Notes under the pieces: model-generated
Told to the model about the DNA's origin: nothing
Databases searched by the model: none
What the model saw: only the letters and a program-made list of their open reading frames with translations
Translations under genes and position numbers: made by a program
Assembly: GCA_049303905.1 (NCBI GenBank)
Contig: JBAQNP010000039.1
Coordinates: 36,682 to 100,681 of the forward strand
Reading direction: 5' to 3'
Source: Candidatus Moraniibacteriota bacterium
GTDB lineage: Bacteria > Patescibacteriota > Minisyncoccia > Moranbacterales > UBA2206
Length of the DNA: 64,000 nt
Shown here: one piece after another, positions 9,997-24,126 of the stretch
Layout: each line of letters starts with the position of its first letter
Position numbering within the stretch: position 1 is the first letter of the stretch

Positions 9997-11034
9997 ATGA
10001 GTGAACTGGAGGAAATAAAAATAAAATCCAAGAAAAATCACCTGTGGCCTGTTTTTTTGATTATGGCGGTGCTTTTTTTGATTTTTTTCTCACAATATCC
10101 AATCAATTTGAAAACATTTTTCAGCGCCGGATCAACAGAAAATCAAACTGAAATTAAACAAGAACAACCCAAGATAACTTTGGAAGAAATTTCGGAAATA
10201 ACTAATACTACTCCAACAGAGGAAGCTCAAGGCGCGGGAAATAGTGAAGAAAATATTGTTTCAGAAGAAGTTATAAAAGAAGATTCTCCAAAGGAAGATG
10301 AAGAAAAAGAAGAAATTCCTAGGGCAGATTTAGTAATCGGACTTATCGCCGATGCGCATACTGGACAAAATAATGGCTTCTCTCATCTAAGCTATGTTCT
10401 TTTATCACTCAAAAAATATTCGGCGCCGGATATTGTTGTCGATCTAGGAGATCTCATTGAAAGTCGAAATGACGGATTTATTTCCAAGAAGAAAGCTATA
10501 GCTGATTACAAAAAAGCCAATTCTATGATTACTGCTTCTTTTCCAGTTTATCATGTCCTTGGCAACCATGAACTTCTTAGCCTAAGTAAAGACGACGTCA
10601 ATGATTTAAGGGGACGAAAAAATTATTACGCAGTCACTGTCAAGAATGGATATCGACTGATTGTTCTAGACGCAAATTATACTGACACAGAAGAACATAT
10701 TGACGCTAAGCACGCCGATGACTTCATCTATACCGGCACTCTTTCAAACAGACAGCTCAGTTTATTAGAAAGTGAATTGAAAAAAAATGAAAAAAATTTG
10801 ATTTTCATTCATCACCCTCTTTGGAATTTGACTAACAAAAATGAAGTTTCCAGAATTCTCAAAAAATATAAAGACAAAATAGTTATGACTGCCAACGGAC
10901 ACAAACATCCCTTGGAAATACAAGTAATTGATTTTGGTGGAGTAAAAAACTACAATATCCCTTCAGCCTTCCATCAAAAGGCCTACGCCGTAGCCAGAAT
11001 AAACGGTCTTGAGGTTCAGGTGAGTAATAAATAG
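9997..11034 (+). CDS. membrane-anchored calcineurin-like metallophosphoesterase
   Basis: N-terminal TM helix plus acidic linker, then MPE motifs DAH, GDLIE, GNHE, IHHP, GHKH. Confidence 0.8.
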   Translation: MSELEEIKIKSKKNHLWPVFLIMAVLFLIFFSQYPINLKTFFSAGSTENQTEIKQEQPKITLEEISEITNTTPTEEAQGAGNSEENIVSEEVIKEDSPKEDEEKEEIPRADLVIGLIADAHTGQNNGFSHLSYVLLSLKKYSAPDIVVDLGDLIESRNDGFISKKKAIADYKKANSMITASFPVYHVLGNHELLSLSKDDVNDLRGRKNYYAVTVKNGYRLIVLDANYTDTEEHIDAKHADDFIYTGTLSNRQLSLLESELKKNEKNLIFIHHPLWNLTNKNEVSRILKKYKDKIVMTANGHKHPLEIQVIDFGGVKNYNIPSAFHQKAYAVARINGLEVQVSNK

Positions 11035-11037
11035 TTT

Positions 11038-13212
11038 TTATTCAAGTGTCAGTATATCATAAGTTTTTTCATCCATATCTAACTGCAAAAGAACTCTATA
11101 GTCTACATTATCTATTTTTGTCCTAAAATCACCAGTATGCCAATGCCCAGAATAAACATAAGCCACTCCATTGTTATTAAATAATTCAACAAGCTCCTTA
11201 TTCCTTTCACGTATTTCCTTTTTTCCATTGTCGTTTTTAAAAACTGGACAATGCAAAAATACAATCTTTTTCTTGCTTGTTTCTAAAGATTTTTTAAGCC
11301 AATTCATTTGTTCTTCATCAACTTCCACGCATTCGTAATCATAACCATCACTGTCTCCAATTTTTAGATTATACAGAGCAATCATTCTCCAATTTCCATA
11401 ATCTGTATAAAAATATTTTTGATCTTCCAAGTATATATTTCCGTCATGATTTCCATTGACCCAAATAAAATCTTTTCCTGATTGCTTTTCATATTCTTTT
11501 AATAAGTTAGACATTTCATAGCTTGGTCGTTGTTGATTGTCCCCTGTCATTATTATAAATTTAGAGTTGATTGATTTCCCAACTAAATAATCGAGTTTTT
11601 CTTTCCATTTTCTCGGGTCATATTCCTCTCCCTCTGCAAGTTCTTTTCCAGCATGTAAATCAGTCGCAATGGTTATTTGAAATTTTCTATCTCCCCATCG
11701 ATAAACACTCCCATTCCCTATTCCCTCAATTTCTATTTTTTCTAAATTACTCTCTATGTATTTCAAGGCACCTTTTTTTATATTCTTCTTGTCGTCTTCA
11801 GAAAAAACAATCCATCCGCCTGGATTAGTTGAAATAATTTCCTGAAGTTTTTCCAATGACAAGGGGGTTCTTTTTGTATCGGTCGCAATAGGATACACTT
11901 TTATATTCTGCCCTCTCCAGTAATAGTTCCGCCCTCTTCGGGTTATAAGGGCATCATCCTTGTTTCTATTCTGAACAACATAACCATATATTTTTTTATA
12001 ATCCATTTCATCTTTTAGATAATTCCTATATAAACCATCGACACTAAAAAAATAAAAATAATTAGGAATCAAAAGAAGTAAAAGAATAAATGGCACAATA
12101 AAAGATTTCTTATCTCCCTTAAATCTATTTTTAATAAAACTTGAAAAATAATAAACTCCTGAGGAAAGTAAGATTATTTCAAAAGGTTTTATCAGATACA
12201 GATAGCGAACATTGGGTCTATGAGTCCAAAGAAAAACTGCCGCCAAAAGAATAACAAAGTATGAAAGTCCGACCCAAGTCATTTTTTTTCTTAAATTTTC
12301 CTCCCTTAATGAAAAATATAATCCAAAAATAATAAACAACAAAGATATCCAGTAAGAATTATAATCTATGGCTATTTTCTCAAAATATGAGAAATTATCC
12401 ATAAAAAATTCAATGTGTCCCAAACCTTTTATTATTATTTTATTTTCAAAAAATAAATAAGAGACAATGACCGAAACAGCACCGCTTGCTAGTATTATAA
12501 AATATTTATTTAAAAAATATTCCTTATCCTTAATAGAAAAATATAATTGAACAACCAAATAAGAAATAACTACTGGCGCAATATTAAGTGCGATTGCATG
12601 AATCTTTAGACTCACTAAGCCCAAAGTAATCACCGGAATAAACCATAAAATATTTAAGCCAGTTTGAGTATTTATTTTTTTTAAAATACTATTATTTCCC
12701 TTGTATTTCTCTTCTAAAAATCTAAATAAGGAGAATGAGAAAAGAAGAAAAATTGGAATAAACATAGCATACATTCGAAAAGTTCGATCAGCCTGAATTG
12801 AACAAATGTTAACTGCCAAGAAAAAAGCACTTAGAACTCCAATTATTTTTTTTCCGGAAAAATATGAACCGACAAAATAAATTGAAATAATTGAAATCAT
12901 CCCCCAGAAAATACTAATCAGACGCACTGACATTTCATTTAGTGGAAATACTTTCAATAATTGAGCAGTTTGCCAACGATAAACTATTGTGCGGTTATCT
13001 CGAGTTTTTTTTATATCCTCTACACTTGGAGCTTCAATATTGAAATCCCAAGCATGCCAATTTCCGGTTTTATGATATCCATAAGTTGCGTTAATATCTA
13101 AAAATTCATCAATCGCCAGAGTTGTCTCTCCTATTTTATGAAAACGTAAAAAAAATCCTAACGCCAATATAAGAACTATTGCAAAAATTATAATTTTTTT
13201 TTCTTTTTTCAT
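11038..13212 (-). CDS. fusion protein: GT-C-like polytopic membrane domain (DE motif) + C-terminal calcineurin-like metallophosphoesterase domain
   Basis: N-terminal ...AIDEFLDINATYGYHKTGNWHAWDF plus more than 10 TM helices, paralogous to the two downstream genes. C-terminal DLH, MTGDN, GNHDG, LHCP, GHWH motifs. Confidence 0.7.
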   Translation of the reverse strand: MKKEKKIIIFAIVLILALGFFLRFHKIGETTLAIDEFLDINATYGYHKTGNWHAWDFNIEAPSVEDIKKTRDNRTIVYRWQTAQLLKVFPLNEMSVRLISIFWGMISIISIYFVGSYFSGKKIIGVLSAFFLAVNICSIQADRTFRMYAMFIPIFLLFSFSLFRFLEEKYKGNNSILKKINTQTGLNILWFIPVITLGLVSLKIHAIALNIAPVVISYLVVQLYFSIKDKEYFLNKYFIILASGAVSVIVSYLFFENKIIIKGLGHIEFFMDNFSYFEKIAIDYNSYWISLLFIIFGLYFSLREENLRKKMTWVGLSYFVILLAAVFLWTHRPNVRYLYLIKPFEIILLSSGVYYFSSFIKNRFKGDKKSFIVPFILLLLLIPNYFYFFSVDGLYRNYLKDEMDYKKIYGYVVQNRNKDDALITRRGRNYYWRGQNIKVYPIATDTKRTPLSLEKLQEIISTNPGGWIVFSEDDKKNIKKGALKYIESNLEKIEIEGIGNGSVYRWGDRKFQITIATDLHAGKELAEGEEYDPRKWKEKLDYLVGKSINSKFIIMTGDNQQRPSYEMSNLLKEYEKQSGKDFIWVNGNHDGNIYLEDQKYFYTDYGNWRMIALYNLKIGDSDGYDYECVEVDEEQMNWLKKSLETSKKKIVFLHCPVFKNDNGKKEIRERNKELVELFNNNGVAYVYSGHWHTGDFRTKIDNVDYRVLLQLDMDEKTYDILTLE

Positions 13213-13230
13213 TTTATTATTATGCTTTAA

Positions 13231-14754
13231 TTATTTTCCCCAATGATAAATTGAAATGGAAGTAGGAATTTTTTTACTTTCAATCTTTTCAAGATTTTCT
13301 TTCAGATAATCCCGACCATCCTTACAAACAAAAACCTCGTCAATTTTCGGCAGAATAAATAGACCGCTTGGATTTTCAGCAATTGTTTTTTTCACAAATT
13401 CCAAACAATCTTTCTTCTCAAACGGCAATGTTTGCAGATCCAAAACTTTCACATCATCTCCGCGCCAATAATAACTGCGATAGGCTCGAGTGACAAGCAC
13501 GTCTCCATCTTTTTTGCTTTCCAAAATATGCGGAAAAATATTTTTAAAATCAGGATAATATGAATTTTTAGTATGAACATAGACATTGTTTTCTTTTTTG
13601 AAATAGGAAAAATCAAAAAGAGCCAAAAAAGCCATCAGAAAAACAATCGTCGCGATCATTCCTTTTTTCCCAAAACAACTTCGAATATAAATAGCCATTG
13701 CGTATACTCCGCCAGCAATCAGAATTGCTCCAAAAGATTGAATAAAATAAATATAGCGCTCAGAAGGAGTTCTAACCCAAGTAAAAATCGCAAACGTCAG
13801 CGGAACGAAAGCGGAAACAAAAAGAAAAACAGCTTCTTTTTTTCTCTCTAATTTTTTGAATAAATACCATGCTCCAATAAGCGCGAGAATAAAGGCGACA
13901 ATTGGCAAGTGAAAATCATTAAAATAATCAAAAAAATAGCGGGGATTAAATTCGAACAAAGCTACTTGTTTCTTGAAAGATTTGTAGAATTTAGCCAGAC
14001 TTGGCAATTGACTCACCGCGAGATACGTGGCAAGAATAAGCGCCAGAGTAATTGAGTATTTATTTATCTTATTTTTTTTCTCCCAAATAACCCAACCCGA
14101 AAAAGAAAAGGCTACTATGGTAAAAATAATATTAGCTGTGAGCATATGGACATTATAGCTAATAAATCCTGCCATAAGTGTCGGCAAAAAATAGAAAAAA
14201 TTGACATTAAATTTTTCAGAAATAAATTTGAACAATTTATTTTTCCCGACATATTTCGCTTCATAAAATTGATAGACTAACCAAGAAAAAATCAAATAGA
14301 CCGGAAAGAGCATTGAATACATTCGCAGACGCCGGCTATAAATTATTCCAGATTCTCCAATCGAAACCAGAAGTGCCGAAAGAAGTGCAATCCAATAATT
14401 ACCGGTAAAATATAGAGCGATAAAATAAACCGCCAAAATACTCAGTAGCCCCCAAAAAACACTCACGACGCGACTTGAGCTTTCGGTCGGTTCAAAAAAT
14501 TGGTAAATCTTTGCCAATTGCCAACGATAAATTTCTGCCCGTTCAGTGCTGGTTTCATCTTGAAGTTTTCCGCTAAAAGGTTTTTCACTTCCAAAGTCCC
14601 ATGCCACCCAATTGCCGGTTTTGAAATATCCATACGACGCATTAAGTTCAAAAAATTCATCCCGATCAAAAGAAGTATTTCCTAGATTATAAATCCGCAG
14701 TCCCGCGCCTAAAAAGATAATTAAAAATAACAATGCCAGTGATTTTTTTTTCAT
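13231..14754 (-). CDS. GT-C-like polytopic membrane protein (paralog 2 of tandem triplet)
   Basis: FDRDEFFELNASYGYFKTGNWVAWDF; the same architecture and conserved blocks as the 11038-13212 and 14774-16318 proteins; C-terminal soluble domain ending IYHWGK. Confidence 0.6.
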   Translation of the reverse strand: MKKKSLALLFLIIFLGAGLRIYNLGNTSFDRDEFFELNASYGYFKTGNWVAWDFGSEKPFSGKLQDETSTERAEIYRWQLAKIYQFFEPTESSSRVVSVFWGLLSILAVYFIALYFTGNYWIALLSALLVSIGESGIIYSRRLRMYSMLFPVYLIFSWLVYQFYEAKYVGKNKLFKFISEKFNVNFFYFLPTLMAGFISYNVHMLTANIIFTIVAFSFSGWVIWEKKNKINKYSITLALILATYLAVSQLPSLAKFYKSFKKQVALFEFNPRYFFDYFNDFHLPIVAFILALIGAWYLFKKLERKKEAVFLFVSAFVPLTFAIFTWVRTPSERYIYFIQSFGAILIAGGVYAMAIYIRSCFGKKGMIATIVFLMAFLALFDFSYFKKENNVYVHTKNSYYPDFKNIFPHILESKKDGDVLVTRAYRSYYWRGDDVKVLDLQTLPFEKKDCLEFVKKTIAENPSGLFILPKIDEVFVCKDGRDYLKENLEKIESKKIPTSISIYHWGK

Positions 14755-14773
14755 ATTTTTTTACCTTTAATTA

Positions 14774-16318
14774 TTACCAGCGATAAATATTCACGCCTCT
14801 CACCTGTGAATCTATTTTTTCCAAGTTTTCTTCCAGATATATTCGACCATTTTTGCAAACTGAGAGATGGTCAATCTCCGGCAAAACCACCATCCCACTT
14901 TCATTTTCAGAAATTATCTTGGCAAATGTTTCATCACAATTTTGTTTTTCCAACGGCAAAACTTTCACATCCAAAACCTTAACTTTCCAATCGGAAAAAT
15001 AGAAACTGCGATAAGCTCTTGTCACTAAAACATCCTCTGGTTTCAAATTATCCTTCACAACCGCAAAAACTTCTCTAAAATCAATGAAATTTGAAGATTG
15101 TCTTTGCTGATACAAATTATTATTACCGATAATATGTGAGTAATCAAGCGAGAAAAACATCAAAGTCGAAACGATCAGTGCAATTATCTTTTTATGGTTT
15201 TTGAATTTTTTAGCTAAAAAATAATAAAGCGCATAAATTCCAACGGCAGAAAAGATAATCCCGAATGATTGGATAAAATAGATATAGCGTGAAGCCGGTT
15301 CCCTTACCCAGGAAAAAACTGCATAGAAAAGCGGGACCATTGCCGAAAGGAAAATAAACAAAGCTTCCTTTTTGCGCTCAAGCCTAAACGCCAAGAACCA
15401 CCCACCTAAAAAGAAAAGCGCTATTCCTACGACGAGATATCTAAAATCAGTAAAAAAATATTCGATACTTCTGTAGTTGTCTTGCCAAAAACTTACCGCC
15501 TTATCAAAATCCTTATAGACTCCCCTAAAAAATATTTTCAAGAAAATAACGCCCGCTATCGCACCAAAAATAGTCAAAAAATATTTATTCAAAAAAATAT
15601 TTTTTTCTTTTTTCCAACTAAGCATCGCCCAAATGAAACAATATGCAATCAAAGAAAAAGCGATATGCACACTTAGCTCTTGAATTTCATAACTCACAAA
15701 ACCAACCAATGCCGTTGGCAAAATAAAATTTGGGTTGACTTTGAATTTTTGGTAAATTTTTTGGAAAAAAATTATCTTGCCCCTATAGGCAGATTCATAA
15801 AACTTAAATAGGCACCAAGAAAAAATGAGATAGATTGGAAATAGCATTGAATACATTCGAAGTCGTCGGCCAAAAATAATTTCCGACTCTCCAATAGCCA
15901 CCAGAAGTGCCGCCAGAAGTGCCACATAAAAATTTCCGGTAAAAGACAAAGTCACAAAATATATCGCGATAATACTCACGATCCCCCAAAAAACACTGAT
16001 AAGACGCGCGTTGCCTTCGGTTGGATGCATGACATTATACGACAATGCTAATGGAATTCGGAAAAGCTGGGCGCGAGTGTTACTATAATCTTTCTGTAAA
16101 GACGGTTCCAAGGGTTGATCTAAATTAAAATCCCACGCCAACCACTCCCCTGTTTTGAAATATCCATATGAGGTGTTGATATCAAAAAATTCATCGCGAG
16201 CAAAAGCTTCATCGTTCAATTTATATAAACGCAAAAAACATCCTATCAAAATAATAAGAAACAACACCGCAAGAAATCCATTTTTTTTTCTGCCTTTTAT
16301 AAACAATGCTTTTGACAA
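14774..16318 (-). CDS. GT-C-like polytopic membrane protein (paralog 3 of tandem triplet)
   Basis: FARDEFFDINTSYGYFKTGEWLAWDF; shared blocks RLRMYSMLFP, YIYFIQSFG and LVTRAYRS with its neighbours. Confidence 0.6.
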   Translation of the reverse strand: MSKALFIKGRKKNGFLAVLFLIILIGCFLRLYKLNDEAFARDEFFDINTSYGYFKTGEWLAWDFNLDQPLEPSLQKDYSNTRAQLFRIPLALSYNVMHPTEGNARLISVFWGIVSIIAIYFVTLSFTGNFYVALLAALLVAIGESEIIFGRRLRMYSMLFPIYLIFSWCLFKFYESAYRGKIIFFQKIYQKFKVNPNFILPTALVGFVSYEIQELSVHIAFSLIAYCFIWAMLSWKKEKNIFLNKYFLTIFGAIAGVIFLKIFFRGVYKDFDKAVSFWQDNYRSIEYFFTDFRYLVVGIALFFLGGWFLAFRLERKKEALFIFLSAMVPLFYAVFSWVREPASRYIYFIQSFGIIFSAVGIYALYYFLAKKFKNHKKIIALIVSTLMFFSLDYSHIIGNNNLYQQRQSSNFIDFREVFAVVKDNLKPEDVLVTRAYRSFYFSDWKVKVLDVKVLPLEKQNCDETFAKIISENESGMVVLPEIDHLSVCKNGRIYLEENLEKIDSQVRGVNIYRW

Positions 16319-16372
16319 TAGCCCTTAAATTCAATACTATATAATTATAAATAAAAATTTAAATATAATCAA

Positions 16373-18205
16373 ATGCTAAAAATCACCGCAAAAAACAAAG
16401 CCTACAAAAACATAAAATTTGCTTTTTTGTTTCTAATCGTCTATGCAATTTATTTTTCTTTTGGGTTTCACCACCTATCTCAATTTCAAACTGCCGATGA
16501 ACATTTGTGGATAGGAGAAAGAGTTTACACCTATTGGCATAGCCTCAATCCTAAAAATTGGTCCGACACAGTATTAAGCGACAAACCAGGTATATCGACA
16601 GCTCTAGTATCAGGAATTACGCTTTTTTGGGAAAAAAATCCGCAAAAAGATATTAGCAATATATTGAAAGTTGAATCTCTATATAAATCTTTTCGCCTGC
16701 CTTTTCTTTTCTTTAACGCTTTTTTTATGCTTTTTATTTTTTGGCTGATAAAAAAAATAACCCAAAATTTCTGGATTTCCTTTTGGTCTTTTTCTTTAAT
16801 GCTTCTTTCTCCTATTCTTTTAGGAATTTCACAAATTATTAATCCTGATTCATTATTCTGGCTTTTTTCGACAGCCACGCTCTTGAGTTTTATAGCTTAT
16901 TTAGAAACAGAAGAAAAAAAATTCATAGTTTTAGCGCCAATTTTTCTTGGATTGTCTCTTTTGACTAAATTTGTAAGTGTTATATTTTTCCCCTTTCTTT
17001 TTATCACTACTCTTATTTTTTGTCTATTAAATATTCCGAAATGGAAAGCGGATAAAACACCAATCAATAAGAAAATAATAAGAATTTCTATTTTTTATCT
17101 AACAACAATCATTGGATCACTCGCGGTTTTTTCCCTTTTTATGCCAGCGGTTTTTCTTGATAAACAACTTTTTTTTGATTATACAATTGGATATTCTTCG
17201 ATGAAAAAAATATTGCCACTCATACTTATTTTGCAATTTTTTCTCATTTTTGATGCTGTCAAATTAAAAAGTGAGATATCTCTCAAAATAATAAACTTTA
17301 TTCCTAAAAAATTCGAGGATATTTTTAGATTTCTTCCTCTACTATTATCACTAACTTTTATAGCAGTTATCATAAACTGGAACACGAATTTATTATTCTT
17401 AAATCCTGAGAATATCGTGAAGTATGCCACTCGCTCATCTGACTTTACCAAAGATTCTTTATTTTTAGAAAAATTACTATATCAATTTTATTCTTTCGTT
17501 TTTTCTCTTACTCCGCTTGTCATTATATTTCTACTATTTATTTGGATAAAACAAATATTCAAGAAAATAGATCTGATTTTTACCTCAATTATTCTTCAGT
17601 TATTTATAGTCGTTTTTTATTTCGCTTTAATTGCCGAAAAACTTCCCTCCACTGTTCGCTATAGCATCATTCTCTACCCACTCGCCTCAATTTTAGCTTC
17701 TTTTGGTATTTTTGAATTTTTTTCTCATAATAAACTAAAAAACATTAATAAAATTTATGTTTCACTAGCTATTATTGCCATAAGTTTTCTGAGTCTTTGG
17801 CAAATCAAACCTTTTTATTTCAGCTATATAAATTCCTTGCTTCCGGAGAAATACATTCTTTCGGGCGCTTGGGGCTATGGCGGATATGAAGCGGCTCAAT
17901 ATCTAAATTCATTACCAGACGCAAAAAATTTAGTAGTGTGGTCAGACTATGGCGGTTTTTCCAAATTTTTTCAAGGCACCACATATAGAGATTATATTTT
18001 AAAAAAAGATTTTAAGCCTGTGGAATATTATGTAATCTCTCAACAAGGAAAAATGATGTACGATTATTGGTGTAATAAAAGAAAAAGTACGTGTCAAAGA
18101 AAATATATTCCGCTGAATAATTTCCTGGAAACAAAAACTCCCGTTTGGGAAATGTATATCGGCGGAAGGCCGGATAATTTTATAAAAATATATAAAGCGG
18201 AATAG
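16373..18205 (+). CDS. GT-C fold membrane glycosyltransferase candidate (ArnT/PMT-like)
   Basis: 610 aa, polytopic; TADEHLW (DE) motif in the first extracytoplasmic loop, followed by a soluble C-terminal domain. Confidence 0.5.
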   Translation: MLKITAKNKAYKNIKFAFLFLIVYAIYFSFGFHHLSQFQTADEHLWIGERVYTYWHSLNPKNWSDTVLSDKPGISTALVSGITLFWEKNPQKDISNILKVESLYKSFRLPFLFFNAFFMLFIFWLIKKITQNFWISFWSFSLMLLSPILLGISQIINPDSLFWLFSTATLLSFIAYLETEEKKFIVLAPIFLGLSLLTKFVSVIFFPFLFITTLIFCLLNIPKWKADKTPINKKIIRISIFYLTTIIGSLAVFSLFMPAVFLDKQLFFDYTIGYSSMKKILPLILILQFFLIFDAVKLKSEISLKIINFIPKKFEDIFRFLPLLLSLTFIAVIINWNTNLLFLNPENIVKYATRSSDFTKDSLFLEKLLYQFYSFVFSLTPLVIIFLLFIWIKQIFKKIDLIFTSIILQLFIVVFYFALIAEKLPSTVRYSIILYPLASILASFGIFEFFSHNKLKNINKIYVSLAIIAISFLSLWQIKPFYFSYINSLLPEKYILSGAWGYGGYEAAQYLNSLPDAKNLVVWSDYGGFSKFFQGTTYRDYILKKDFKPVEYYVISQQGKMMYDYWCNKRKSTCQRKYIPLNNFLETKTPVWEMYIGGRPDNFIKIYKAE

Positions 18206-18227
18206 ATAAATTATTAAGTTCTAAAAA

Positions 18228-20309
18228 TTATTTCCTATTCTTCTCTTTCAAGTAGTACGGCACTGCAAAAAAACTCACCAGCATTTGCAAAAATCTTCCA
18301 AAGATTGCGATGGAAATGGCTGCTTCACCATCCACGCCAAAAATTCCAAAAAAAGCAATAAAGGACCATTCCTTAATACCGATATTACCAATACTCACAG
18401 GAATTGAAGAAGCAATGCTAATAATTGAGATGGCAATCATGAAATTAACAAAACTGATTGGGATATGCAGATCTAAAAATAGCATCCAAGTCGCTAAGCT
18501 CACTCCGACAAAATTAAAAATCATTCCCCAGGCCAAAGATTTTGTCAAAATTTCATTTCGTTGATAGGATAATATCTCCTGAATAATTTTGACTATTTTT
18601 TCCGGCAAGAATTTTTTCACTCCTTGCCAAATTGTCAATCGACGAATGATTATGAGCAAAAAATTAGCCACAAAAAAAAGAATGATTCCAATGTTTATCC
18701 CCAAAAGAAGATTACTCTCAAAAACAGTTTTTAAATTAAAAAGACTGAAAATTAGAATCAGCATCATTACACCAGCAAAACCTGTGATGCGATCAACTAA
18801 GACGGTCGAAGTGGCTTCTAAATATTTTCCACCTTCTGACTTACCAAGGGTATAGGAACGATAGGTGTCTCCGCCGATGATAGACGGAAAAAAATTATTT
18901 ATAAAAGCCCCGGTTAGATAAATTTTGAAAAGATCTTGGAATTTCATCTTAAATCCCTTAAAGTCAGCCAGAATTTTCCATTTATAGGAAGAAATTGCAA
19001 TTCCAAAAGCATAAATCAAAACAAAAGCTCCCATCCACCAAATATCCATTTTTTCAAAATATCCCAAAACCTCTTGCCAATCAACCTTGAAAAAAATCCA
19101 AGTCAAGAAAGCCGTCATAAAAACAAGCTTGAAAATAAATTTAATTTTGCTTTTATTTTGCTTTGGCGTTTCTTTTTTCTTTGAAACTTCTTCTAGAATT
19201 TCAAAATATTTTTTGGCGTTTTCACTCCAAGACATTTCTTCTGCCAACTTCCGACTCTTCCCAGACATTTCTTGGCGCAAATTTTCATCACTGATAATTT
19301 TCTCCAGAGAATCATAAATATCCTGGGAATTTTTTTTTCTTATGATAAAACCATTTCCACTCATTAGCTCAGCCGCTCCCGTATCAGTGGTTATAATTGG
19401 AAGTCCTGAGGCAAGGGCTTCTTGCGTCACATTGCCCAAGGCTTCACTTAATGACGGAAGTAGAAATATATGGGATTTTTGATAAATCCCAGCAATTTCA
19501 TCATGATTCACAATTCCCAAAAAAACAACTTTTTCTGACAAATTATTTTTTCTGACAAATTTTTCATATTCATCCTTCATTGGCCCTTCGCCCACAATAA
19601 GCAATCTAGCATTTGGATATTTTTTTGACAAATCTCGAAAAGCCGACAATGCATAGATTGCTCCTTTTCTTTCAATCAACCTTCCCACAAAAAGAATATT
19701 GAAAGTTTCTTCTTTTTTCAAAATTTCTTCATTTGGACAAAATTCTTTCGTATTTATTCCATTCCTAATGATTATTATTTCTTGATCGCCGGAGGTTTTT
19801 TTCGCTAAATTCGAAAGATCATTGCTTAGCGCCACTACTTTTTCTGCCTCCTTCCATATTTTTTTGCTCATCCGCCGAAAAAAAAGTTTATCCAAAAAAT
19901 TGAATCGTTCATTGTAGAATGGCACATCGCTTCCGCGAAGACTCACAATATACGGCAAGTCCAATTTTTTGGCAATATATCCACAAGGAATTCCAAAAAA
20001 AGCTAATGTAGCGTCAAATTTTTCTTTTTTATTCAATTTTTTAGAAAACCAATAGGCTTTCCAAGAATACACCAGTAAATCCCTATTTGTTTGAAAATGC
20101 ATTTTAGAATTACTTTTTCCAATTGGCAATTTATGAATTCGAATATTCTCCCCTATTTTTTCCAAATGATATTTCCTATCAGCCGATGACGTGACTAAAT
20201 CTACCCGGAGATCGGGAATTTTAGAAAATTCTTGCAGAAGATAGAACACGGCATTGCCCGCTCCTCCACCGAGTGGCGGATATTCATAATTCAAAATTAG
20301 TATTCTCAT
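18228..20309 (-). CDS. fusion: GT4 glycosyltransferase + C-terminal lysylphosphatidylglycerol-synthase-TM / UPF0104 flippase-like membrane domain
   Basis: N-terminal MRILILNYEYPPLGGGAGN...GNVTQEALASGLPIITTDTG (GT4); C-terminal 300 aa polytopic, with FFPSIIGGDTYRSYTL typical of PF03706-like domains. Confidence 0.65.
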   Translation of the reverse strand: MRILILNYEYPPLGGGAGNAVFYLLQEFSKIPDLRVDLVTSSADRKYHLEKIGENIRIHKLPIGKSNSKMHFQTNRDLLVYSWKAYWFSKKLNKKEKFDATLAFFGIPCGYIAKKLDLPYIVSLRGSDVPFYNERFNFLDKLFFRRMSKKIWKEAEKVVALSNDLSNLAKKTSGDQEIIIIRNGINTKEFCPNEEILKKEETFNILFVGRLIERKGAIYALSAFRDLSKKYPNARLLIVGEGPMKDEYEKFVRKNNLSEKVVFLGIVNHDEIAGIYQKSHIFLLPSLSEALGNVTQEALASGLPIITTDTGAAELMSGNGFIIRKKNSQDIYDSLEKIISDENLRQEMSGKSRKLAEEMSWSENAKKYFEILEEVSKKKETPKQNKSKIKFIFKLVFMTAFLTWIFFKVDWQEVLGYFEKMDIWWMGAFVLIYAFGIAISSYKWKILADFKGFKMKFQDLFKIYLTGAFINNFFPSIIGGDTYRSYTLGKSEGGKYLEATSTVLVDRITGFAGVMMLILIFSLFNLKTVFESNLLLGINIGIILFFVANFLLIIIRRLTIWQGVKKFLPEKIVKIIQEILSYQRNEILTKSLAWGMIFNFVGVSLATWMLFLDLHIPISFVNFMIAISIISIASSIPVSIGNIGIKEWSFIAFFGIFGVDGEAAISIAIFGRFLQMLVSFFAVPYYLKEKNRK

Positions 20310-20315
20310 AGTTTA

Positions 20316-21302
20316 TTATAAATTGATAAAAGAAGTCATTGATTTCTGGCCTTTAATTTTGATTATCGCGTATTGTTTTTTAATATTAAGCGATGGCATG
20401 TCAATATAATCAATACCAGCGAAGGTCGAACTTTTAGCCGTATGTTTATGACCGCTCGCAATCAAAATCACTTTATCCTTGTATTTTGTAAGCAATTCTT
20501 CAATTTCAATACTGTTTAACAGGCCGTATAAAGGATGATGAATAAAAATTATGTTCTGATTATTTTCTTGGAGTTTTTCTTCTAACCATTTTTTTTCTTT
20601 TTCCGGAATAAATCCGGCGTAAGCTCCCGGTTTTTCTCTGTCTCTTTCAACATCTTCACCTGTAGGAAACCAATAATTGGCATCTAAGACTATAATTTGA
20701 TAATTTTTTGCCATGAAAGAATAGTAACTGTCAGAACCAATAAGTTTTTCATAATCCTTTTTGCGCAAACTAAACATTTCATGATTTCCCGCTACATGAT
20801 AGCGCGGCTCAAAACCCAATAGACTTTCATCAGCCCTTTTCCATTCAGCAATACCTTCCGCTATTGGCTGTTTGCCATTTCCATCAACATTCCTATTCTC
20901 AATAAAATCACCCAGCTCAATGATAAAATCCGGTTTTTCTGGATTAGCTTCTCCTTTTTCTTGTATATGCACTTCTTTGGCAAATTTCGCTATCATTGAA
21001 TAGATACTTCCTTCAGCATGAGAATCTGACATCACTCCAATGACAAGATCCGATCTTCTCTTTGTCATATTTTCACTAACAAAATTTTCATCTACTCCAC
21101 TTGAAATATCAATATTGTTTTGAAATTGATTTGGATAAGTTTTTTTCGAATTAAAACTAAAACTAAAAATTGCAACTACAAGAGCAATTGCAATAATAAG
21201 AATAAGTAATATTATCTTTGCTTTTTTTCTATTTTTTAAGATAAATTCTTTGAAATTTTTAATTTTCAGATTCTTAATTTTATCAATTATTTTTTTCTTC
21301 AT
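20316..21302 (-). CDS. membrane-anchored calcineurin-like metallophosphoesterase
   Basis: TM anchor; motifs MSDSHAEG, GDFIE, GNHEM, IHHP, GHKH all intact. Confidence 0.8.
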   Translation of the reverse strand: MKKKIIDKIKNLKIKNFKEFILKNRKKAKIILLILIIAIALVVAIFSFSFNSKKTYPNQFQNNIDISSGVDENFVSENMTKRRSDLVIGVMSDSHAEGSIYSMIAKFAKEVHIQEKGEANPEKPDFIIELGDFIENRNVDGNGKQPIAEGIAEWKRADESLLGFEPRYHVAGNHEMFSLRKKDYEKLIGSDSYYSFMAKNYQIIVLDANYWFPTGEDVERDREKPGAYAGFIPEKEKKWLEEKLQENNQNIIFIHHPLYGLLNSIEIEELLTKYKDKVILIASGHKHTAKSSTFAGIDYIDMPSLNIKKQYAIIKIKGQKSMTSFINL

Positions 21303-21332
21303 AAAAAATTTAATTACTAATTAGATATTCCA

Positions 21333-22304
21333 TCAATTATATAAATTTAAAAATTCCACCTCAGATACATTTCTTTTTACGCTAATTATCATATATTGTT
21401 TTTGATGATATAAGGAAGGAATATCGGCATAGTGACTTCCAGCAAAATTAAAAGTTCTAGCTCTATTTTTATGACCATTAGAAATCAAAATAATGCTTTC
21501 TTGGTATTTTTTTAGTAACTTTTCAATTTCGACACTGTTTGTCAAATTATATATTGGGTGATGGATGAAGATAATATTACGATTACTTTCCTTAAGTTTT
21601 CCCTCCAACCATGTTTTTTCTTTTGATGGGATATATCCAGTATAAGCCCCTGGTTTCTGTTTTTCTGGATCGACATCCCCCTCAGAACCTTGCCAATACA
21701 TCGCGTCTAAAACTATTATCTGATACCCTTTTACATTAAAGGAATAATATGAATCAAAACCAGTTAGATCTTTATAATCTTTTTTGTTGAGACTAAGCAT
21801 TTCATGATTACCAATCACATGATAACGAGGCTCATAAGCCAAAAGAGCATCGGCTTTTCTGAAATCTGCTACGCCGTCCTCTCTGGGTTGCCTCCCGCCT
21901 CCCGTTTTAGTTCTATTTTCGATAAAATCCCCCACTTCAATCACAAAATCAGGTCTTATCTCATGTTCTTGCAATTTTTTAGCAAAATCTCCAATTAACT
22001 TAAACCTGTCGTCAATAGCTTGAGAATCCGCCATAACGCCAATTACCAAATCTGGTGCTACCTTATAATAGTTCTCGCTCACAAATTCTTCATCTTTAAT
22101 ATCATCTTCATTTGCACCTTCGTTTTGAACCGCAGTATTCTGACAAATTTTTTCAATCGAAAAATTATAAAAGCTTTTCCCAAAAGAACTGAAACTAAAA
22201 ATTACAATAGCAATTATAACTAAAAAAACCAGCAATGTTATTTTTGCTTTCTTTTTGTCTTTCCAAAAAATATTTTTTATCTTATCCACTATCTTTTTTT
22301 TCAT
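21333..22304 (-). CDS. metallophosphoesterase paralog with substituted metal-ligand histidines (possibly inactive)
   Basis: Tandem paralog of 20316-21302. Motif I reads MADSQAID (His to Gln) and the last motif reads GHKNRA (His to Asn); GDFIE, GNHEM and IHHP are retained. Confidence 0.7.
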   Translation of the reverse strand: MKKKIVDKIKNIFWKDKKKAKITLLVFLVIIAIVIFSFSSFGKSFYNFSIEKICQNTAVQNEGANEDDIKDEEFVSENYYKVAPDLVIGVMADSQAIDDRFKLIGDFAKKLQEHEIRPDFVIEVGDFIENRTKTGGGRQPREDGVADFRKADALLAYEPRYHVIGNHEMLSLNKKDYKDLTGFDSYYSFNVKGYQIIVLDAMYWQGSEGDVDPEKQKPGAYTGYIPSKEKTWLEGKLKESNRNIIFIHHPIYNLTNSVEIEKLLKKYQESIILISNGHKNRARTFNFAGSHYADIPSLYHQKQYMIISVKRNVSEVEFLNLYN

Positions 22305-23660: not shown

Positions 23661-23690
23661 GACATTCATGAAACATGAAACATGTAGCAT
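23658..23690. repeat. Heptad CATGAAA element, copy 2 (opposite orientation to copies 1, 3 and 4)
   Basis: Plus strand reads CATGACATTCATGAAACATGAAACATGTAGCAT. It lies between the ugd start and the stop of the four-helix-bundle gene. Confidence 0.55.
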
Positions 23691-24069: not shown

Positions 24070-24126
24070 GTTTTTGTATTTTGTATTTTGTCTTATGCTT
24101 CATGTTATATGTTTCATGCTTCATGA
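24064..24126. repeat. Heptad CATGAAA element, copy 3
   Basis: Minus strand reads TTCATGAAGCATGAAACATATAACATGAAGCATAAGACAAAATACAAAATACAAAAACATGAAA (7-nt period). It overlaps the last codons (HEA stop) of the GT2 gene and sits directly 5' of the four-helix-bundle gene ATG. Confidence 0.55.

What the first reader, a model, noticed from the sequence alone, without database searches (positions are those of the whole stretch)
9997..22304. Array of four membrane-anchored calcineurin-like metallophosphoesterases interleaved with GT-C-type membrane glycosyltransferase paralogs
Within 12 kb there are a stand-alone TM-anchored MPE (9997-11034), a GT-C-like membrane protein with an MPE domain fused to its C-terminus (11038-13212), two further GT-C-like paralogs in tandem (13231-16318), a fourth GT-C candidate (16373-18205), a GT4/flippase-like fusion, and a tandem MPE pair (20316-22304). 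The MPE domains all sit after signal-anchor helices or after the last TM of the GT-C domain, so they are predicted to be outside the membrane, next to the GT-C catalytic loops. I know of no described glycan pathway that couples extracytoplasmic GT-C transferases with calcineurin-like phosphoesterases. The arrangement suggests a phosphodiester-forming or phosphodiester-trimming step on a surface glycan, analogous in logic (not in fold) to LtaS/EptA-type membrane + alkaline-phosphatase-fold enzymes.
Basis: partly seen in the sequence, partly recalled or inferred. Interest (0 to 1): 0.8.

Follow-up and report, generated by a model that had tools for sequence, protein, structure and literature searches.

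The report
Outer-face phosphodiesterases partnered with GT-C glycosyltransferases
In an uncultivated Moranbacteria (CPR) genome, a conserved surface-sugar gene cluster carries four membrane-tethered phosphate-ester-cleaving enzymes, predicted to lie outside the cell, and one is fused to a sugar-transferring membrane enzyme; related species repeat this pairing, it has not been described in bacteria, and its substrate is unknown.

Summary
Four proteins carry Pfam Metallophos domains. One of these domains is the C-terminal domain of a 724-aa membrane protein.

- **Topology:** The positive-inside rule holds in all 66 family members. Four orthologs carry lipoboxes. Both place the MPE domains outside the membrane.
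- **Source and locus:** The window comes from a Candidatus Moraniibacteriota MAG. The genes are the variable part of a glycan locus with the same gene order in about 80 species.
- **Recurrence:** MPE genes occur inside that locus in 24 of 80 species and fall into about 8-11 sequence clusters. They are fused to three different GT-C lineages, and about 30 protein clusters belong to a second, PMT_2+MPE type.
- **MPE type:** The MPEs resemble diesterases (Rv0805, GpdQ, ADPRibase-Mn). One copy has lost both His ligands of metal site 1.
- **Best guess at function:** The MPEs are outer-face phosphodiesterases that edit a phosphate-linked group on the nascent glycan or glycolipid, in step with GT-C glycosylation. 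Release of the carrier lipid is the main rival.

The pairing is not wholly unprecedented. GPI-anchor assembly uses PGAP5/Cdc1/Ted1, and B. subtilis has UpsH. The bacterial extracytoplasmic fusion does appear to be undescribed.

The parts
782..1765 (+). GT2, polyprenyl-phosphate sugar synthase-like (AglJ/PpgS/ArnC-like). First gene of the conserved locus.
   Evidence: Pfam Glycos_transf_2. NCBIfam AglJ 121 bits, PpgS and ArnC hits, all below equivalog cut-offs. Conserved as gene 'A' in related loci.
1771..2889 (+). GT4 glycosyltransferase (cytoplasmic).
   Evidence: Pfam Glycos_transf_1 104.5 bits. Gene 'B' in the synteny map.
2972..4897 (+). Large polytopic membrane protein with DUF6541/DUF1616. 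Possible further GT-C-like or polymerase-type enzyme.
   Evidence: Pfam DUF1616 34.6 bits and DUF6541 33.3 bits. Multiple hydrophobic segments. Gene 'C', conserved. Function not tested.
5259..6383 (+). GT4 glycosyltransferase.
   Evidence: Pfam Glycos_transf_1 73.1 bits.
6380..7708 (+). RtcB-family ligase embedded in the operon. Its role in the pathway is unknown.
   Evidence: Pfam RtcB 166.8 bits. Keeps this position in most of the 80 species loci.
7872..8504 (+). P-loop, dTMP-kinase-like protein (weak match).
   Evidence: Pfam Thymidylate_kin on residues 6-35 only. TIGR00041 35.6 bits, below its cut-off of 83. Conserved position.
8501..9991 (+). Wzx/MOP-family flippase.
   Evidence: Pfam Polysacc_synt, MurJ and MatE. 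NCBIfam MOP flippase hits.
9997..11034 (+). MPE1: N-terminal TM anchor, about 75-aa acidic linker, then an MPE domain with all five motifs (DAH, GD, GNHE, HH, GHKH). Last gene of the + operon, 5 bp after Wzx.
   Evidence: Pfam Metallophos 42.6 bits. TM 16-34 with the N-flank more positive than the C-flank. Motifs. Orthologs sit in the same slot in L005, L006, L015, L017, L027 and L082.
11038..13212 (-). 724-aa fusion. An 11-TM GT-C fold domain (residues 1-395) carries the invariant DE motif (D35, E36) in the first outer loop. It is followed by an outer alpha/beta domain (395-505) and an MPE domain (512-693) with intact motifs (DLH, GD, GNHD, H, GHWH).
13231..14754 (-). GT-C-fold paralog (507 aa) without an MPE domain.
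   Evidence: 32% identical to the fusion's N-terminal part and 47% to the next paralog over about 500 aa. Member of alignment A1. No Pfam hit.
14774..16318 (-). GT-C-fold paralog (514 aa) without an MPE domain here. Its 76%-identical ortholog in a related genome (L001:6257-8452, 731 aa) does carry a C-terminal MPE.
   Evidence: Gene table of L001.
16373..18205 (+). PMT-family (GT39-like) GT-C glycosyltransferase, 610 aa. Orthologs in other species (L045 970 aa, L048 916 aa) have a C-terminal MPE-like extension.
   Evidence: Pfam PMT 43.9 bits and PMT_2 27 bits. L045 and L048 are 31-36% identical over 610 aa and have an added MPE-like tail.
18228..20309 (-). GT4 glycosyltransferase fused to an LPG_synthase_TM (flippase-like) membrane domain.
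   Evidence: Pfam Glycos_transf_1 125.6 bits and LPG_synthase_TM 133.6 bits. TIGR00374 flippase-like domain. In most other species these are two separate genes.
20316..21302 (-). MPE3: TM-anchored MPE with canonical motifs (DSH, GD, GNHE, HH, GHKH).
   Evidence: Pfam Metallophos 54.8 bits. AF2 model pLDDT 85. Foldseek Rv0805 E 1e-14, ADPRibase-Mn 2e-13, GpdQ 2e-12. N-flank net charge +6 against +2 for the C-flank.
21333..22304 (-). MPE4: TM-anchored tandem paralog of MPE3 (57% identical in the domain). Both His ligands of metal site 1 are replaced (DSQ, GHKN). It may be a non-catalytic or altered-metal partner.
   Evidence: Pfam Metallophos 33.6 bits. The substitutions are conserved in P0071, P0072 and P0073 (P0076 shares only the GHxN change in motif V) and in L015:47-1141, which lies next to a canonical copy.
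22323..23690 (-). UDP-glucose 6-dehydrogenase, which supplies UDP-glucuronate.
   Evidence: Pfam UDPG_MGDP_dh N, central and C domains. NCBIfam nucleotide-sugar dehydrogenase 442 bits, above its cut-off of 189.8.
24114..25049 (-). GT2, ArnC/PgfS-like polyprenyl-phosphate sugar synthase.
   Evidence: Pfam Glycos_transf_2 108.3 bits. NCBIfam ArnC 176.5 bits and PgfS 160.5 bits, both below equivalog cut-offs.
25154..25831 (+). GT2, PpgS/AglJ-like polyprenyl-phosphate sugar synthase.
   Evidence: NCBIfam PpgS 143.3 bits and AglJ 111.9 bits, both below cut-offs.

Best explanation
SHOWN
- The region is the outer-face half of a surface-glycan locus conserved across Candidatus Moraniibacteriota.
- Cytoplasmic GT2 enzymes of the Dpm1/ArnC type are predicted to load sugars onto polyprenyl phosphate. 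One of those sugars is probably a uronic acid, supplied through the UDP-glucose dehydrogenase.
- A Wzx flippase and an LPG_synthase_TM-type flippase-like domain are present to move lipid-linked intermediates outward.
- Four GT-C-fold enzymes lie in the flagged region: three sequence-orphan paralogs and one PMT-type. They are expected to transfer sugars at the outer face.
- In one clade of species, four membrane-tethered extracytoplasmic metallophosphoesterases of the diesterase type have been inserted among these genes. One is covalently fused behind the outer domain of a GT-C. One has lost both His ligands of metal site 1.
- Related species repeat the partnership with different MPE subfamilies and with fusions to three different GT-C lineages. 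The two activities are therefore functionally coupled.

INFERRED (most likely mechanism)
- The MPEs hydrolyse a phosphodiester- or phosphomonoester-linked group on the nascent surface glycan or glycolipid. Hydrolysis either exposes or tidies the position that the partner GT-C glycosylates, or trims the product.
- This is the same logic as PGAP5/Cdc1/Ted1 removing ethanolamine-phosphate during GPI-anchor assembly.
- The degenerate copy may act as a non-catalytic partner of its tandem neighbour.
- The module is optional glycan-variation equipment, not core machinery.
For: Domains and fold.

Outside location:
- 11 TM helices with K/R-rich odd-numbered loops in 66 of 66 family members.
- All 21 stand-alone relatives have a more positive N-flank, and four have a lipobox, LLSGC.
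- Long acidic linkers follow the anchors.

Coupling:
- MPE genes lie inside the locus in 24 of 80 species, in about 8-11 clusters at 40% identity.
- Fusion type 1 joins the orphan GT-C family to an MPE: the window protein, P0002, P0005, P0006 and two proteins in L001/L005.
- Fusion type 2 joins PMT_2 to Metallophos in proteins of about 800 aa. There are about 30 protein clusters, found in L024, L030 and L085.
- Fusion type 3 adds an MPE-like tail to orthologs of 16373-18205: L045 and L048, and probably L020, assigned by MPE-domain clustering only.
- Each fused cluster also has stand-alone members. Orthologs differ in whether the domain is present.

Arguments for glycan editing over a lipid substrate:
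- The nearest structures are soluble-substrate diesterases: Rv0805, GpdQ and ADPRibase-Mn.
- Tethers of 35-110 aa would let the domain reach away from the membrane.
- Several diverged MPE types occur per locus, with different active-site variants: GHxH, GHxE, GHxN and GDHD.
- In species without an MPE, the same slot holds other secreted polymer-active enzymes: beta-helix NosD-like proteins and a TM-anchored metallo-beta-lactamase-fold protein. The pneumococcal teichoic-acid phosphorylcholine esterase has the latter fold (PMC10704324).

Precedent: PGAP5/Cdc1/Ted1 (PMC10704324, PMC4214784).
Against: - No recognisable enzyme that would install a phosphodiester substituent was found in the 64-kb window: no LicD, EptA/LtaS, TagF or Stealth types. 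The proposed substrate is hypothetical.
- Fusion to three different GT-C lineages could equally point to what all GT-Cs share, the polyprenyl-phosphate carrier.
- The MPE part of the fusion model is of low confidence (pLDDT 50-70), so the relative positions of the two active sites are unknown.
- Topology rests on the positive-inside rule and lipoboxes, not on a dedicated predictor or an experiment. B. subtilis UpsH, also a single-TM MPE, was shown to face the cytoplasm (PMC11898649).
- The co-occurrence of MPEs with the GT-C triplication is confined to one clade and is confounded by phylogeny.
- All data come from MAGs. No glycan structure is known for any Moranbacterium.
Confidence: 0.4

Rival explanations
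1. Carrier-lipid release at the outer face. The MPEs hydrolyse polyprenyl-diphosphate, or polyprenyl-(di)phosphate-linked sugars or glycans, next to the GT-C. Polyprenyl phosphate is regenerated as the GT-C turns over, or when intermediates stall. This would be an extracytoplasmic counterpart of B. subtilis UpsH, or a non-PAP2, non-BacA UndPP phosphatase.
For: - UpsH (YpbG) is a single-TM MPE that liberates UndP from UndPP-linked teichoic and teichuronic acid precursors. Its two conserved His residues are essential (PMC11898649).
- LpxH, an MPE that cleaves a lipid-proximal pyrophosphate, is among the structural neighbours.
- Fusion to three different GT-C lineages fits a substrate common to all GT-Cs.
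- In the fusion, the MPE follows the outer domain with only a short linker.
- No UppP/BacA or PAP2 gene is present in the window.
Against: - GT-Cs fed by Dpm1-type GT2 enzymes release polyprenyl monophosphate, which needs no hydrolysis (context).
- A core recycling function would not be expected to be absent from 56 of 80 sister species with the same locus, or to need four diverged copies in one locus.
- Long flexible tethers on the stand-alone copies do not suit a substrate embedded in the bilayer.
- UpsH acts on the cytoplasmic face (PMC11898649).
- The rest of the genome could not be inspected for BacA/PAP2.
Confidence: 0.25
2. Phosphotransfer rather than hydrolysis. The MPE domain uses an acceptor hydroxyl instead of water. 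It attaches a polyprenyl-diphosphate-linked glycan to the wall or to another glycan through a phosphodiester, as LCP enzymes do, or it builds phosphodiester-linked repeats.
For: - The MPE domains lie next to GT-C enzymes and a Wzx flippase on the outer face.
- No LCP-family gene was seen in the window.
- Active-site variants at metal site 1 (GHxE, DxQ/GHxN) could in principle change the chemistry.
Against: - To my knowledge, no MPE is known to act physiologically as a glycan phosphotransferase.
- The nearest structures are all hydrolases.
- The variable presence of the genes argues against an essential attachment step.
Confidence: 0.1
3. Scavenging enzymes that merely reside in the locus. They would be surface-anchored phosphodiesterases or nucleotidases that harvest phosphate, nucleotides or lipid head groups from the environment or host. 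This fits the auxotrophic lifestyle of CPR bacteria, with no mechanistic link to glycosylation.
For: - The closest NCBIfam and PDB relatives are nucleotide and glycerophospho-diesterases: SpdA, CpdA, Rv0805 and GpdQ.
- One relative is source-annotated as CpdA.
- The predicted location is extracellular.
Against: - Repeated covalent fusion to three GT-C lineages, with about 35 fused protein clusters.
- The genes consistently sit between GT-C and flippase genes, inside tight operons with gaps of 5-30 bp.
- At least eight MPE clusters have been recruited independently to the same locus.
Confidence: 0.1
4. The MPE domains are non-catalytic binding or scaffolding modules, comparable to Vps29 or to the carbohydrate-binding modules on Emb and AftD. 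They would hold an anionic acceptor for the GT-C.
For: - MPE4 and its orthologs lack two metal ligands.
- Type-3 tails fall below the Pfam threshold and carry GDHD in place of GNHD.
- Other GT-Cs carry C-terminal binding domains (my own knowledge).
Against: - Three of the four window MPEs retain every catalytic motif.
- All type-1 fusions also retain every catalytic motif, across 38-83% sequence divergence.
- Type-2 fusions retain them except for one substitution, GHxE in place of GHxH in motif V.
- This degree of retention indicates selection for catalysis.
Confidence: 0.05

Closest known systems
PGAP5 (MPPE1) / Cdc1 / Ted1 in eukaryotic GPI-anchor assembly
   Different: They are eukaryotic, separate polypeptides that are never fused to the GT-C, and they belong to a different MPE subfamily. 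The phospho-substituent and the enzymes that install it are known there. Here neither is identified. Sequence membership in that subfamily was not tested.
UpsH (YpbG) of Bacillus subtilis
   Same: A single-TM metallophosphoesterase that acts on a lipid-linked secondary wall-polymer pathway. It releases UndP from UndPP-linked teichoic and teichuronic acid precursors, and its GHxH histidines are required (PMC11898649). The locus here also has teichuronic-acid-like components: TuaC- and TuaD-like hits below equivalog cut-offs.
   Different: UpsH faces the cytoplasm (protease protection, PMC11898649), is a stress-regulon gene rather than a locus member, and is not fused to a GT-C. The MPEs here are predicted to be outside. 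Orthology was not tested because I had no YpbG sequence.
Class III phosphodiesterases and GpdQ (Rv0805, CpdA/SpdA, GpdQ) and ADPRibase-Mn
   Different: Sequence identity is only 15-20%. NCBIfam SpdA and CpdA score 18-25 bits against cut-offs of 400 and 225. Those enzymes are soluble or peripheral and act on nucleotides or small diesters. They have no TM anchor, no acidic tether and no GT-C partner.
Three-component extracytoplasmic glycosylation systems (GtrA/B/C, CsbB/GtcA/YfhO, ArnC/ArnEF/ArnT)
   Same: They combine a Dpm1-like GT2 that loads polyprenyl phosphate, a flippase, and a GT-C that transfers the sugar outside (PMC11127046, PMC8035078, PMC11898649). All three kinds of component are present here, several times over.
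   Different: None of the described systems includes a metallophosphoesterase, fused or adjacent. Where phosphatases do participate in polyprenyl-phosphoribose pathways, they are of other folds and act on the donor's 5-phosphate: the HAD PRP domain (PMC11127046) and Rv3807c (function per PMC11127046; its PAP2 fold is from my own knowledge).
LpxE/LpxF phosphatases with ArnT-like RgtD, or EptA, in lipid A remodelling (my own knowledge, not checked here)
   Same: An outer-face phosphatase removes a phosphate, and a GT-C or a phosphoethanolamine transferase then decorates the same position. The uronic-acid donor is made through UDP-glucose dehydrogenase and a Dpm1-like GT2.
   Different: Those phosphatases are integral PAP2 enzymes. 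The substrate is lipid A of a diderm, whereas CPR bacteria lack LPS. No fusions are known.
LtaS / EptA type enzymes
   Same: A polytopic membrane domain followed by an extracytoplasmic phosphoryl-transfer domain, acting on surface polymers.
   Different: The catalytic domain has an alkaline-phosphatase fold and transfers rather than hydrolyses. The membrane domain is not a GT-C. No such protein was found in the window.

Membership tests
Calcineurin-like metallophosphoesterase superfamily (Pfam PF00149) | Profile match above the curated gathering score. | tested here: met
   42.6, 50.1, 54.8 and 33.6 bits against a cut-off of 21.5 for the four proteins.
Calcineurin-like metallophosphoesterase superfamily (Pfam PF00149) | Five conserved motifs that supply the dinuclear metal ligands and catalytic His: DxH, GD, GNH[D/E], H, GHxH. 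| tested here: met
   All are present in 9997-11034, in the fused domain of 11038-13212 and in 20316-21302. They are NOT all present in 21333-22304, which has DSQ and GHKN.
Calcineurin-like metallophosphoesterase superfamily (Pfam PF00149) | Beta-alpha-beta-alpha-beta sandwich fold. | tested here: met
Calcineurin-like metallophosphoesterase superfamily (Pfam PF00149) | Metal-dependent phosphoester hydrolysis. | not testable with these tools
   Requires an enzyme assay.
GT-C fold glycosyltransferases (ArnT / PMT / STT3 class) | Polytopic membrane fold of the GT-C class. | tested here: met
GT-C fold glycosyltransferases (ArnT / PMT / STT3 class) | Conserved acidic catalytic motif in the first extracytoplasmic loop. 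| tested here: met
   D35 and E36 are invariant in 66 family members, directly after TM1. The loop is assigned to the outside by the positive-inside analysis. Equivalence to the PMT 'DE' motif is my inference and was not checked by superposition.
GT-C fold glycosyltransferases (ArnT / PMT / STT3 class) | Sequence-profile membership in a curated GT-C family (PMT, PMT_2, GT39, GT83). | tested here: not met
   For the three paralogs, PMT_2 scores 18.8 bits against a cut-off of 26.1 in one and nothing in the other two. A family profile finds no solved GT-C. The criterion is met only for 16373-18205: PMT 43.9 bits against 22.7. The paralogs are therefore a sequence-orphan family with a GT-C fold.
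GT-C fold glycosyltransferases (ArnT / PMT / STT3 class) | Use of a polyprenyl-phosphate-linked sugar donor at the outer face. | not testable with these tools
   Only contextual evidence: three Dpm1/ArnC/PpgS-like GT2 genes and flippase-type genes lie in the same locus.
Class III cyclic-nucleotide phosphodiesterase (CpdA / Rv0805 / SpdA) | Equivalog-level profile score. | tested here: not met
   SpdA 22.6-25.3 bits against a cut-off of 400. CpdA 17.7 bits against 225. PDB phmmer to Rv0805 gives E 0.017. The relationship is structural only.
UpsH (YpbG)-type carrier-lipid-releasing MPE | [quoted passage not shown] | tested here: not met
   Charge bias, lipoboxes and fusion after an 11-TM N-in domain all predict an outside location. 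This is a prediction only.
UpsH (YpbG)-type carrier-lipid-releasing MPE | Sequence orthology to YpbG (COG1408). | not tested
PGAP5 / Cdc1 / Ted1 (MPPE1) family | Sequence membership in the MPPE1 subfamily. | not tested
   No subfamily model exists in the libraries searched. None of these proteins appeared among the Pfam, NCBIfam or PDB hits.
PGAP5 / Cdc1 / Ted1 (MPPE1) family | Removal of a phosphodiester-linked substituent from a lipid-linked glycan on the non-cytoplasmic face. | not testable with these tools
   This is the proposed analogy and needs biochemistry.

The most novel reading that the evidence does not exclude
GT-C-MPE fusions are bifunctional outer-face enzymes that carry out a coupled 'phosphate out, sugar in' exchange, or a phosphotransfer, on a surface glycolipid or glycopolymer. 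This reaction class has not been described in bacteria. On this reading the sequence-orphan GT-C family, the tandem pair of a catalytic and a degenerate MPE, and perhaps the conserved RtcB-like ligase and P-loop kinase-like genes all belong to a phosphate-containing glycan pathway peculiar to Moranbacteria.
Probability: 0.2. Interest if true: 0.85.

Novelty: new variant of a known kind. Interest (0 to 1): 0.62.

Why it matters
- **Cell envelopes of CPR bacteria.** CPR/Patescibacteria make up a large share of bacterial diversity, yet the chemistry of their cell envelopes is essentially unknown. This locus is conserved across about 80 Moranbacteria species, so it probably specifies a major surface glycan.
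- **A testable enzyme partnership.** A metallophosphoesterase has fused to GT-C glycosyltransferases repeatedly and independently. That is strong 'Rosetta-stone' evidence for a partnership with no described bacterial counterpart. The fused proteins are well-defined candidates for biochemical and structural study.
- **A link between two recent findings.** Bacterial MPEs that act on UndPP-linked polymers (UpsH) work on the cytoplasmic face. Eukaryotic MPEs that edit GPI glycans work on the luminal face. This module would connect them.
- **What each outcome would mean.** If the substrate is the carrier lipid, this is a new route for recycling undecaprenyl phosphate outside the cell. If the substrate is the glycan, phosphate-containing surface polymers and their remodelling exist in CPR bacteria.
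- **A new GT-C family.** The analysis also defines a GT-C family of about 65 protein clusters that Pfam and NCBIfam do not detect.

Tried and rejected
1. I built a combined alignment of GT-C homologs and stand-alone MPEs to deepen the MSA for the fused MPE domain (A2). MAFFT placed the MPEs under the membrane domain, so I discarded A2 and used A1. The fused MPE domain is therefore modelled at only pLDDT 50-70, and I did not interpret the inter-domain geometry.
Fusions outside Moranbacteria therefore could not be surveyed by structure.
3. A sequence profile of the orphan GT-C family against PDB sequences found nothing relevant. An MPE family profile against PDB gave only a weak hit to 2nxf.
4. 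Literature searches returned nothing for metallophosphoesterase combined with GT-C, CPR, Patescibacteria, Moranbacteria or PMT. This is absence from the held library only.
5. The listing of cluster members gave no taxon names for the type-2 fusions. Their origin was instead shown by locus context and source names.
6. A crude hydropathy TM count for the type-3 fusion L045 gave an even number of helices and no clear charge bias. The topology of type-3 tails is left open.
7. I considered and rejected a cytoplasmic location for the stand-alone MPEs, as in UpsH, because of charge bias and lipoboxes.
8. I considered and rejected chance co-location of the MPE genes, because of the enrichment and the fusions.
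9. My family-specific MPE HMMs missed a divergent 441-aa MPE in L002 at E<1e-5 (compare). I added a generic HMM built from 120 representatives. The counts may still be lower bounds.

Full report
**1. Source and observation**

The 724-aa product of 11038-13212(-) is 100% identical to an NCBI protein from a Candidatus Moraniibacteriota MAG (contig 118 kb).

Pfam finds Metallophos (PF00149) above its gathering score in four proteins:
- 9997-11034(+)
- residues 512-693 of 11038-13212(-)
- 20316-21302(-)
- 21333-22304(-)

The other assignments also hold:
- 16373-18205(+) is a PMT-family protein.
- 18228-20309(-) is a fusion of GT4 with the flippase-like LPG_synthase_TM domain.
- 22323-23690(-) is UDP-glucose dehydrogenase.
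- 8501-9991(+) is a Wzx/MOP flippase.

The genes lie in tight operons with gaps of 5-30 bp.

**2. The GT-C assignment**

The N-terminal 505 aa of the fusion and the two downstream genes are paralogs, 32-47% identical over about 500 aa. None of the three reaches a Pfam threshold, and none has an NCBIfam hit to its GT-C portion. A profile of 66 family members finds no solved GT-C by sequence.

An AlphaFold2 model built on that alignment has pLDDT above 90 through the membrane part. Its structural matches are clear:
- Foldseek: ArnT at E 2.7e-8.

D35 and E36 are invariant directly after TM1, along with several Trp and Arg residues in the outer loops. This is a sequence-orphan family with a GT-C fold. 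Its homologs are almost all of about 500 aa and come from Moranbacteria.

**3. Topology**

The model has 11 TM helices. Across all 66 family members, the loops predicted to face inward carry on average 19.2 K+R, against 6.8 for the short outward loops. The bias holds in 66 of 66 sequences. The N-terminus is therefore inside, and the C-terminal alpha/beta domain and the MPE domain are outside.

All 21 stand-alone relatives of the three free MPEs have a single N-terminal hydrophobic segment whose N-flank is more positive than its C-flank. Four of them (P0077-P0080) instead carry a lipoprotein lipobox, LLSGC. All have an acidic, low-complexity tether of 35-110 aa before the catalytic domain. These are predictions. 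B. subtilis UpsH, a single-TM MPE, was shown experimentally to face the cytoplasm (PMC11898649), so an experimental check is warranted.

**4. What kind of MPE**

Three of the four copies keep all five motifs. The fourth, 21333-22304, has DSQ and GHKN. Both histidines that bind metal site 1 are replaced. The same pair of changes is conserved in orthologs P0071-P0073 (P0076 shares only the GHxN change). The variant lies next to a canonical copy in the window and in L015. This suggests a tandem duplicate that became a non-catalytic or altered-metal partner.

An AF2 model of 20316-21302 (pLDDT 85) is closest to three enzymes:
- Rv0805, E 1e-14
- ADPRibase-Mn (2nxf), E 2e-13
- the glycerophosphodiesterase GpdQ, E 2e-12

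Purple acid phosphatases, SMPDL3A/B, acid sphingomyelinase and LpxH follow. The fused domain gives the same neighbours at lower scores. NCBIfam equivalog scores for SpdA and CpdA fall far below their cut-offs, so these are not cyclic-nucleotide phosphodiesterases by membership. The fused domain is only 16-27% identical to the three free copies. Its nearest relatives in a 1.8-billion-protein library are anchored stand-alone MPEs of 220-290 aa at about 35% identity.

**5. The locus and recurrence**

Contigs encoding homologs show one conserved gene order:

GT2, GT4, DUF6541/DUF1616 membrane protein, small ORF, GT4, RtcB, dTMP-kinase-like, Wzx, [variable slot], 1-4 orphan GT-Cs, 1-3 PMT/PMT_2 GT-Cs, LPG_synthase_TM, GT4, UDP-glucose dehydrogenase, GT2.

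I fetched 80 species-representative loci from GTDB genomes and mapped them against the window's proteins and MPE HMMs. The findings were:
- The order holds throughout.
- MPE genes occur in 24 of 80 loci, always among the Wzx, GT-C, flippase, GT4 and Ugd genes.
- The MPE domains fall into about 8-11 clusters at 40% identity.
- A rough comparison gives 34 MPE domains in 1.37 Mb, against about 6 expected at B. subtilis density. These events are not phylogenetically independent.

The three GT2 enzymes of the window resemble polyprenyl-phosphate sugar synthases (AglJ, ArnC, PgfS, PpgS; all below equivalog cut-offs). That fits GT-C enzymes fed by lipid-phosphate sugars.

**6. Fusions**

Three different GT-C lineages are found fused to an MPE.

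- **Type 1: orphan family plus MPE.** Members are the window protein, P0002, P0005, P0006 and two proteins in L001/L005. The 731-aa L001 protein is the 76%-identical ortholog of the unfused window gene 14774-16318. The domain has therefore been gained or lost between orthologs.
- **Type 2: PMT_2 plus Metallophos, about 800 aa.** Members include L024:1303-3744, L030:79-2505, P0177, P0181 and P0198. P0177 sits in the same locus type (L085). A homolog search lists about 30 clusters at 90% identity with both Pfam domains, down to 30% identity, and hundreds of unfused relatives of about 530 aa. Source names, where given, are Moranbacteria. Motif V in this type is GHxE.
- **Type 3: PMT-type plus MPE-like tail.** Orthologs of window 16373-18205 carry a C-terminal MPE-like tail of about 300 aa with GDHD: L045 and L048, and probably L020, whose N-terminal part gave no BLAST match to the window PMT. 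Pfam does not detect these tails at E<0.001.

Each fused MPE cluster also contains stand-alone members. The functional link between MPE and GT-C is therefore well supported. Among the 150 best hits of the MPE-domain search, the only non-self GT-C fusions were three type-2 proteins. The architecture appears largely confined to this lineage, within the limits of that search.

**7. The variable slot**

In species without an MPE, the same positions hold other exported enzymes:
- beta-helix NosD-like proteins with signal peptides (L003:11503-12909, L085:1006-1977)
- a TM-anchored metallo-beta-lactamase-fold protein (L003:1037-2035)

These are documented. The module therefore looks like interchangeable outer-face processing equipment.

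In the clade containing the window, three features co-occur: triplication of the orphan GT-C, the GT4-flippase fusion, and the M1/M3/M4 set of MPEs. This is a single clade, so the correlation is not independent evidence.

**8. Mechanism**

Shown: extracytoplasmic (predicted), diesterase-type MPEs are genetically and physically coupled to GT-C enzymes in a conserved glycan locus.

Inferred: I favour, at about 0.4, hydrolytic editing of a phosphate-linked group on the nascent glycan or glycolipid in concert with GT-C glycosylation. The reasons are:
- The structural neighbours are diesterases that act on soluble substrates.
- The tethers are long.
- Several diverged active-site variants occur per locus.
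- Other polymer-active enzymes can occupy the same slot.
- PGAP5/Cdc1/Ted1 provide a precedent (PMC10704324, PMC4214784).

The main weakness is that no enzyme that would install such a group was recognised in the window.

The chief rival, at about 0.25, is release or dephosphorylation of the polyprenyl carrier at the outer face. It is modelled on UpsH (PMC11898649) and LpxH. Fusion to three different GT-C lineages favours it. Three things count against it:
- GT-Cs fed by Dpm1-type enzymes should release a monophosphate product.
- The module is absent from most sister species.
- Multiple diverged copies occur per locus.

Phosphotransfer, scavenging and scaffold roles are less likely (about 0.1, 0.1 and 0.05).

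**9. Novelty**

The parts are known folds. MPEs acting on lipid-linked glycans are known in eukaryotes (GPI) and, since 2025, on the cytoplasmic face in B. subtilis. An extracytoplasmic MPE module that is embedded in a bacterial GT-C glycosylation locus and repeatedly fused to its enzymes was not found in the searched literature. In databases these proteins are annotated only as 'metallophosphoesterase', 'hypothetical' or 'ArnT-like glycosyltransferase'. I rate it a new variant of a known kind, with interest about 0.6.

**Caveats**
- All sequences come from MAGs.
- Topology is predicted.
- The fused MPE domain is modelled at low confidence.
- No glycan chemistry is known for this lineage.

Noticed in passing
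window 6380-7708 (+) and 7872-8504 (+): An RtcB-family ligase (Pfam 166.8 bits) and a weak dTMP-kinase-like P-loop protein (TIGR00041 35.6 bits, cut-off 83) sit inside the glycan operon between a GT4 and Wzx. They keep that position in most of the 80 species loci. An RNA-ligase-type enzyme is unexpected in a glycan locus. It could be a phosphate-handling step of the pathway or merely a syntenic housekeeping gene.
   Followed up: partly
window 21333-22304 (-); also L015:47-1141, P0071-P0073, P0076: This MPE paralog has both His ligands of metal site 1 replaced (DxH to DxQ, GHxH to GHxN). The changes are conserved in orthologs (both in P0071-P0073; P0076 shares only the GHxN change). In the window and L015 the variant lies next to a canonical copy. 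It may be a pseudo-enzyme partner in a heterodimer.
   Followed up: partly
L024:1303-3744, L030:79-2505, P0177/P0181/P0198; L020:3034-5754, L045:2935-5844, L048:2846-5593: Other active-site variants occur in MPEs recruited to the same locus. Motif V is GHxE in the PMT_2-fused type. Motif III is GDHD in the PMT-fused type, whose tails fall below the Pfam threshold.
   Followed up: partly
L003:11503-12909, L085:1006-1977, L003:1037-2035: In MPE-less species the variable slot holds signal-peptide-bearing beta-helix (NosD/Beta_helix) proteins and a TM-anchored Lactamase_B-fold protein. This suggests interchangeable extracytoplasmic glycan-processing enzymes.
   Followed up: partly
window 2972-4897 (+): A 641-aa polytopic membrane protein with DUF6541 and DUF1616 hits, conserved in nearly all loci. 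It is possibly a fifth GT-C-like enzyme or a polymerase or ligase. It was not modelled.
   Followed up: no
window 23701-24069 (-) and 25903-26271 (+): Two small four-helix-bundle genes of the '23S rRNA intervening-sequence protein' type (bAvd-like) are interspersed among the glycosyltransferase genes. The same family appears at similar places in several related loci (tag 'v').
   Followed up: no
window 26810-46996: A second polysaccharide locus lies here. It contains several GT2/GT4 genes, a 965-aa protein with three GT2 domains (35631-38528) and an 821-aa fusion of a polysaccharide pyruvyl transferase with ferredoxin and FrhB-like domains (38533-40998). It also has an asparagine synthase, a methyltransferase, a Wzt/Wzm ABC exporter (41007-42314, 44941-45714) and another Wzx-like flippase (45704-46996).
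   Followed up: no
window 47762-51022 (-) and 42404-44329 (+): A 1086-aa protein has an LCAT/PGAP1-like alpha/beta-hydrolase (lipase) domain. A 641-aa protein has three DUF5648 repeats plus SpoIID. Both may be relevant to envelope or lipid scavenging in a CPR bacterium.
   Followed up: no
loci L007, L009, L016, L018 and many others: Many GTDB representative genomes carrying this Moranbacteria-type locus are titled 'uncultured Bdellovibrionales bacterium' in their TPA records. Gene content and synteny match Moranbacteria, so the titles look like mislabels.
   Followed up: no
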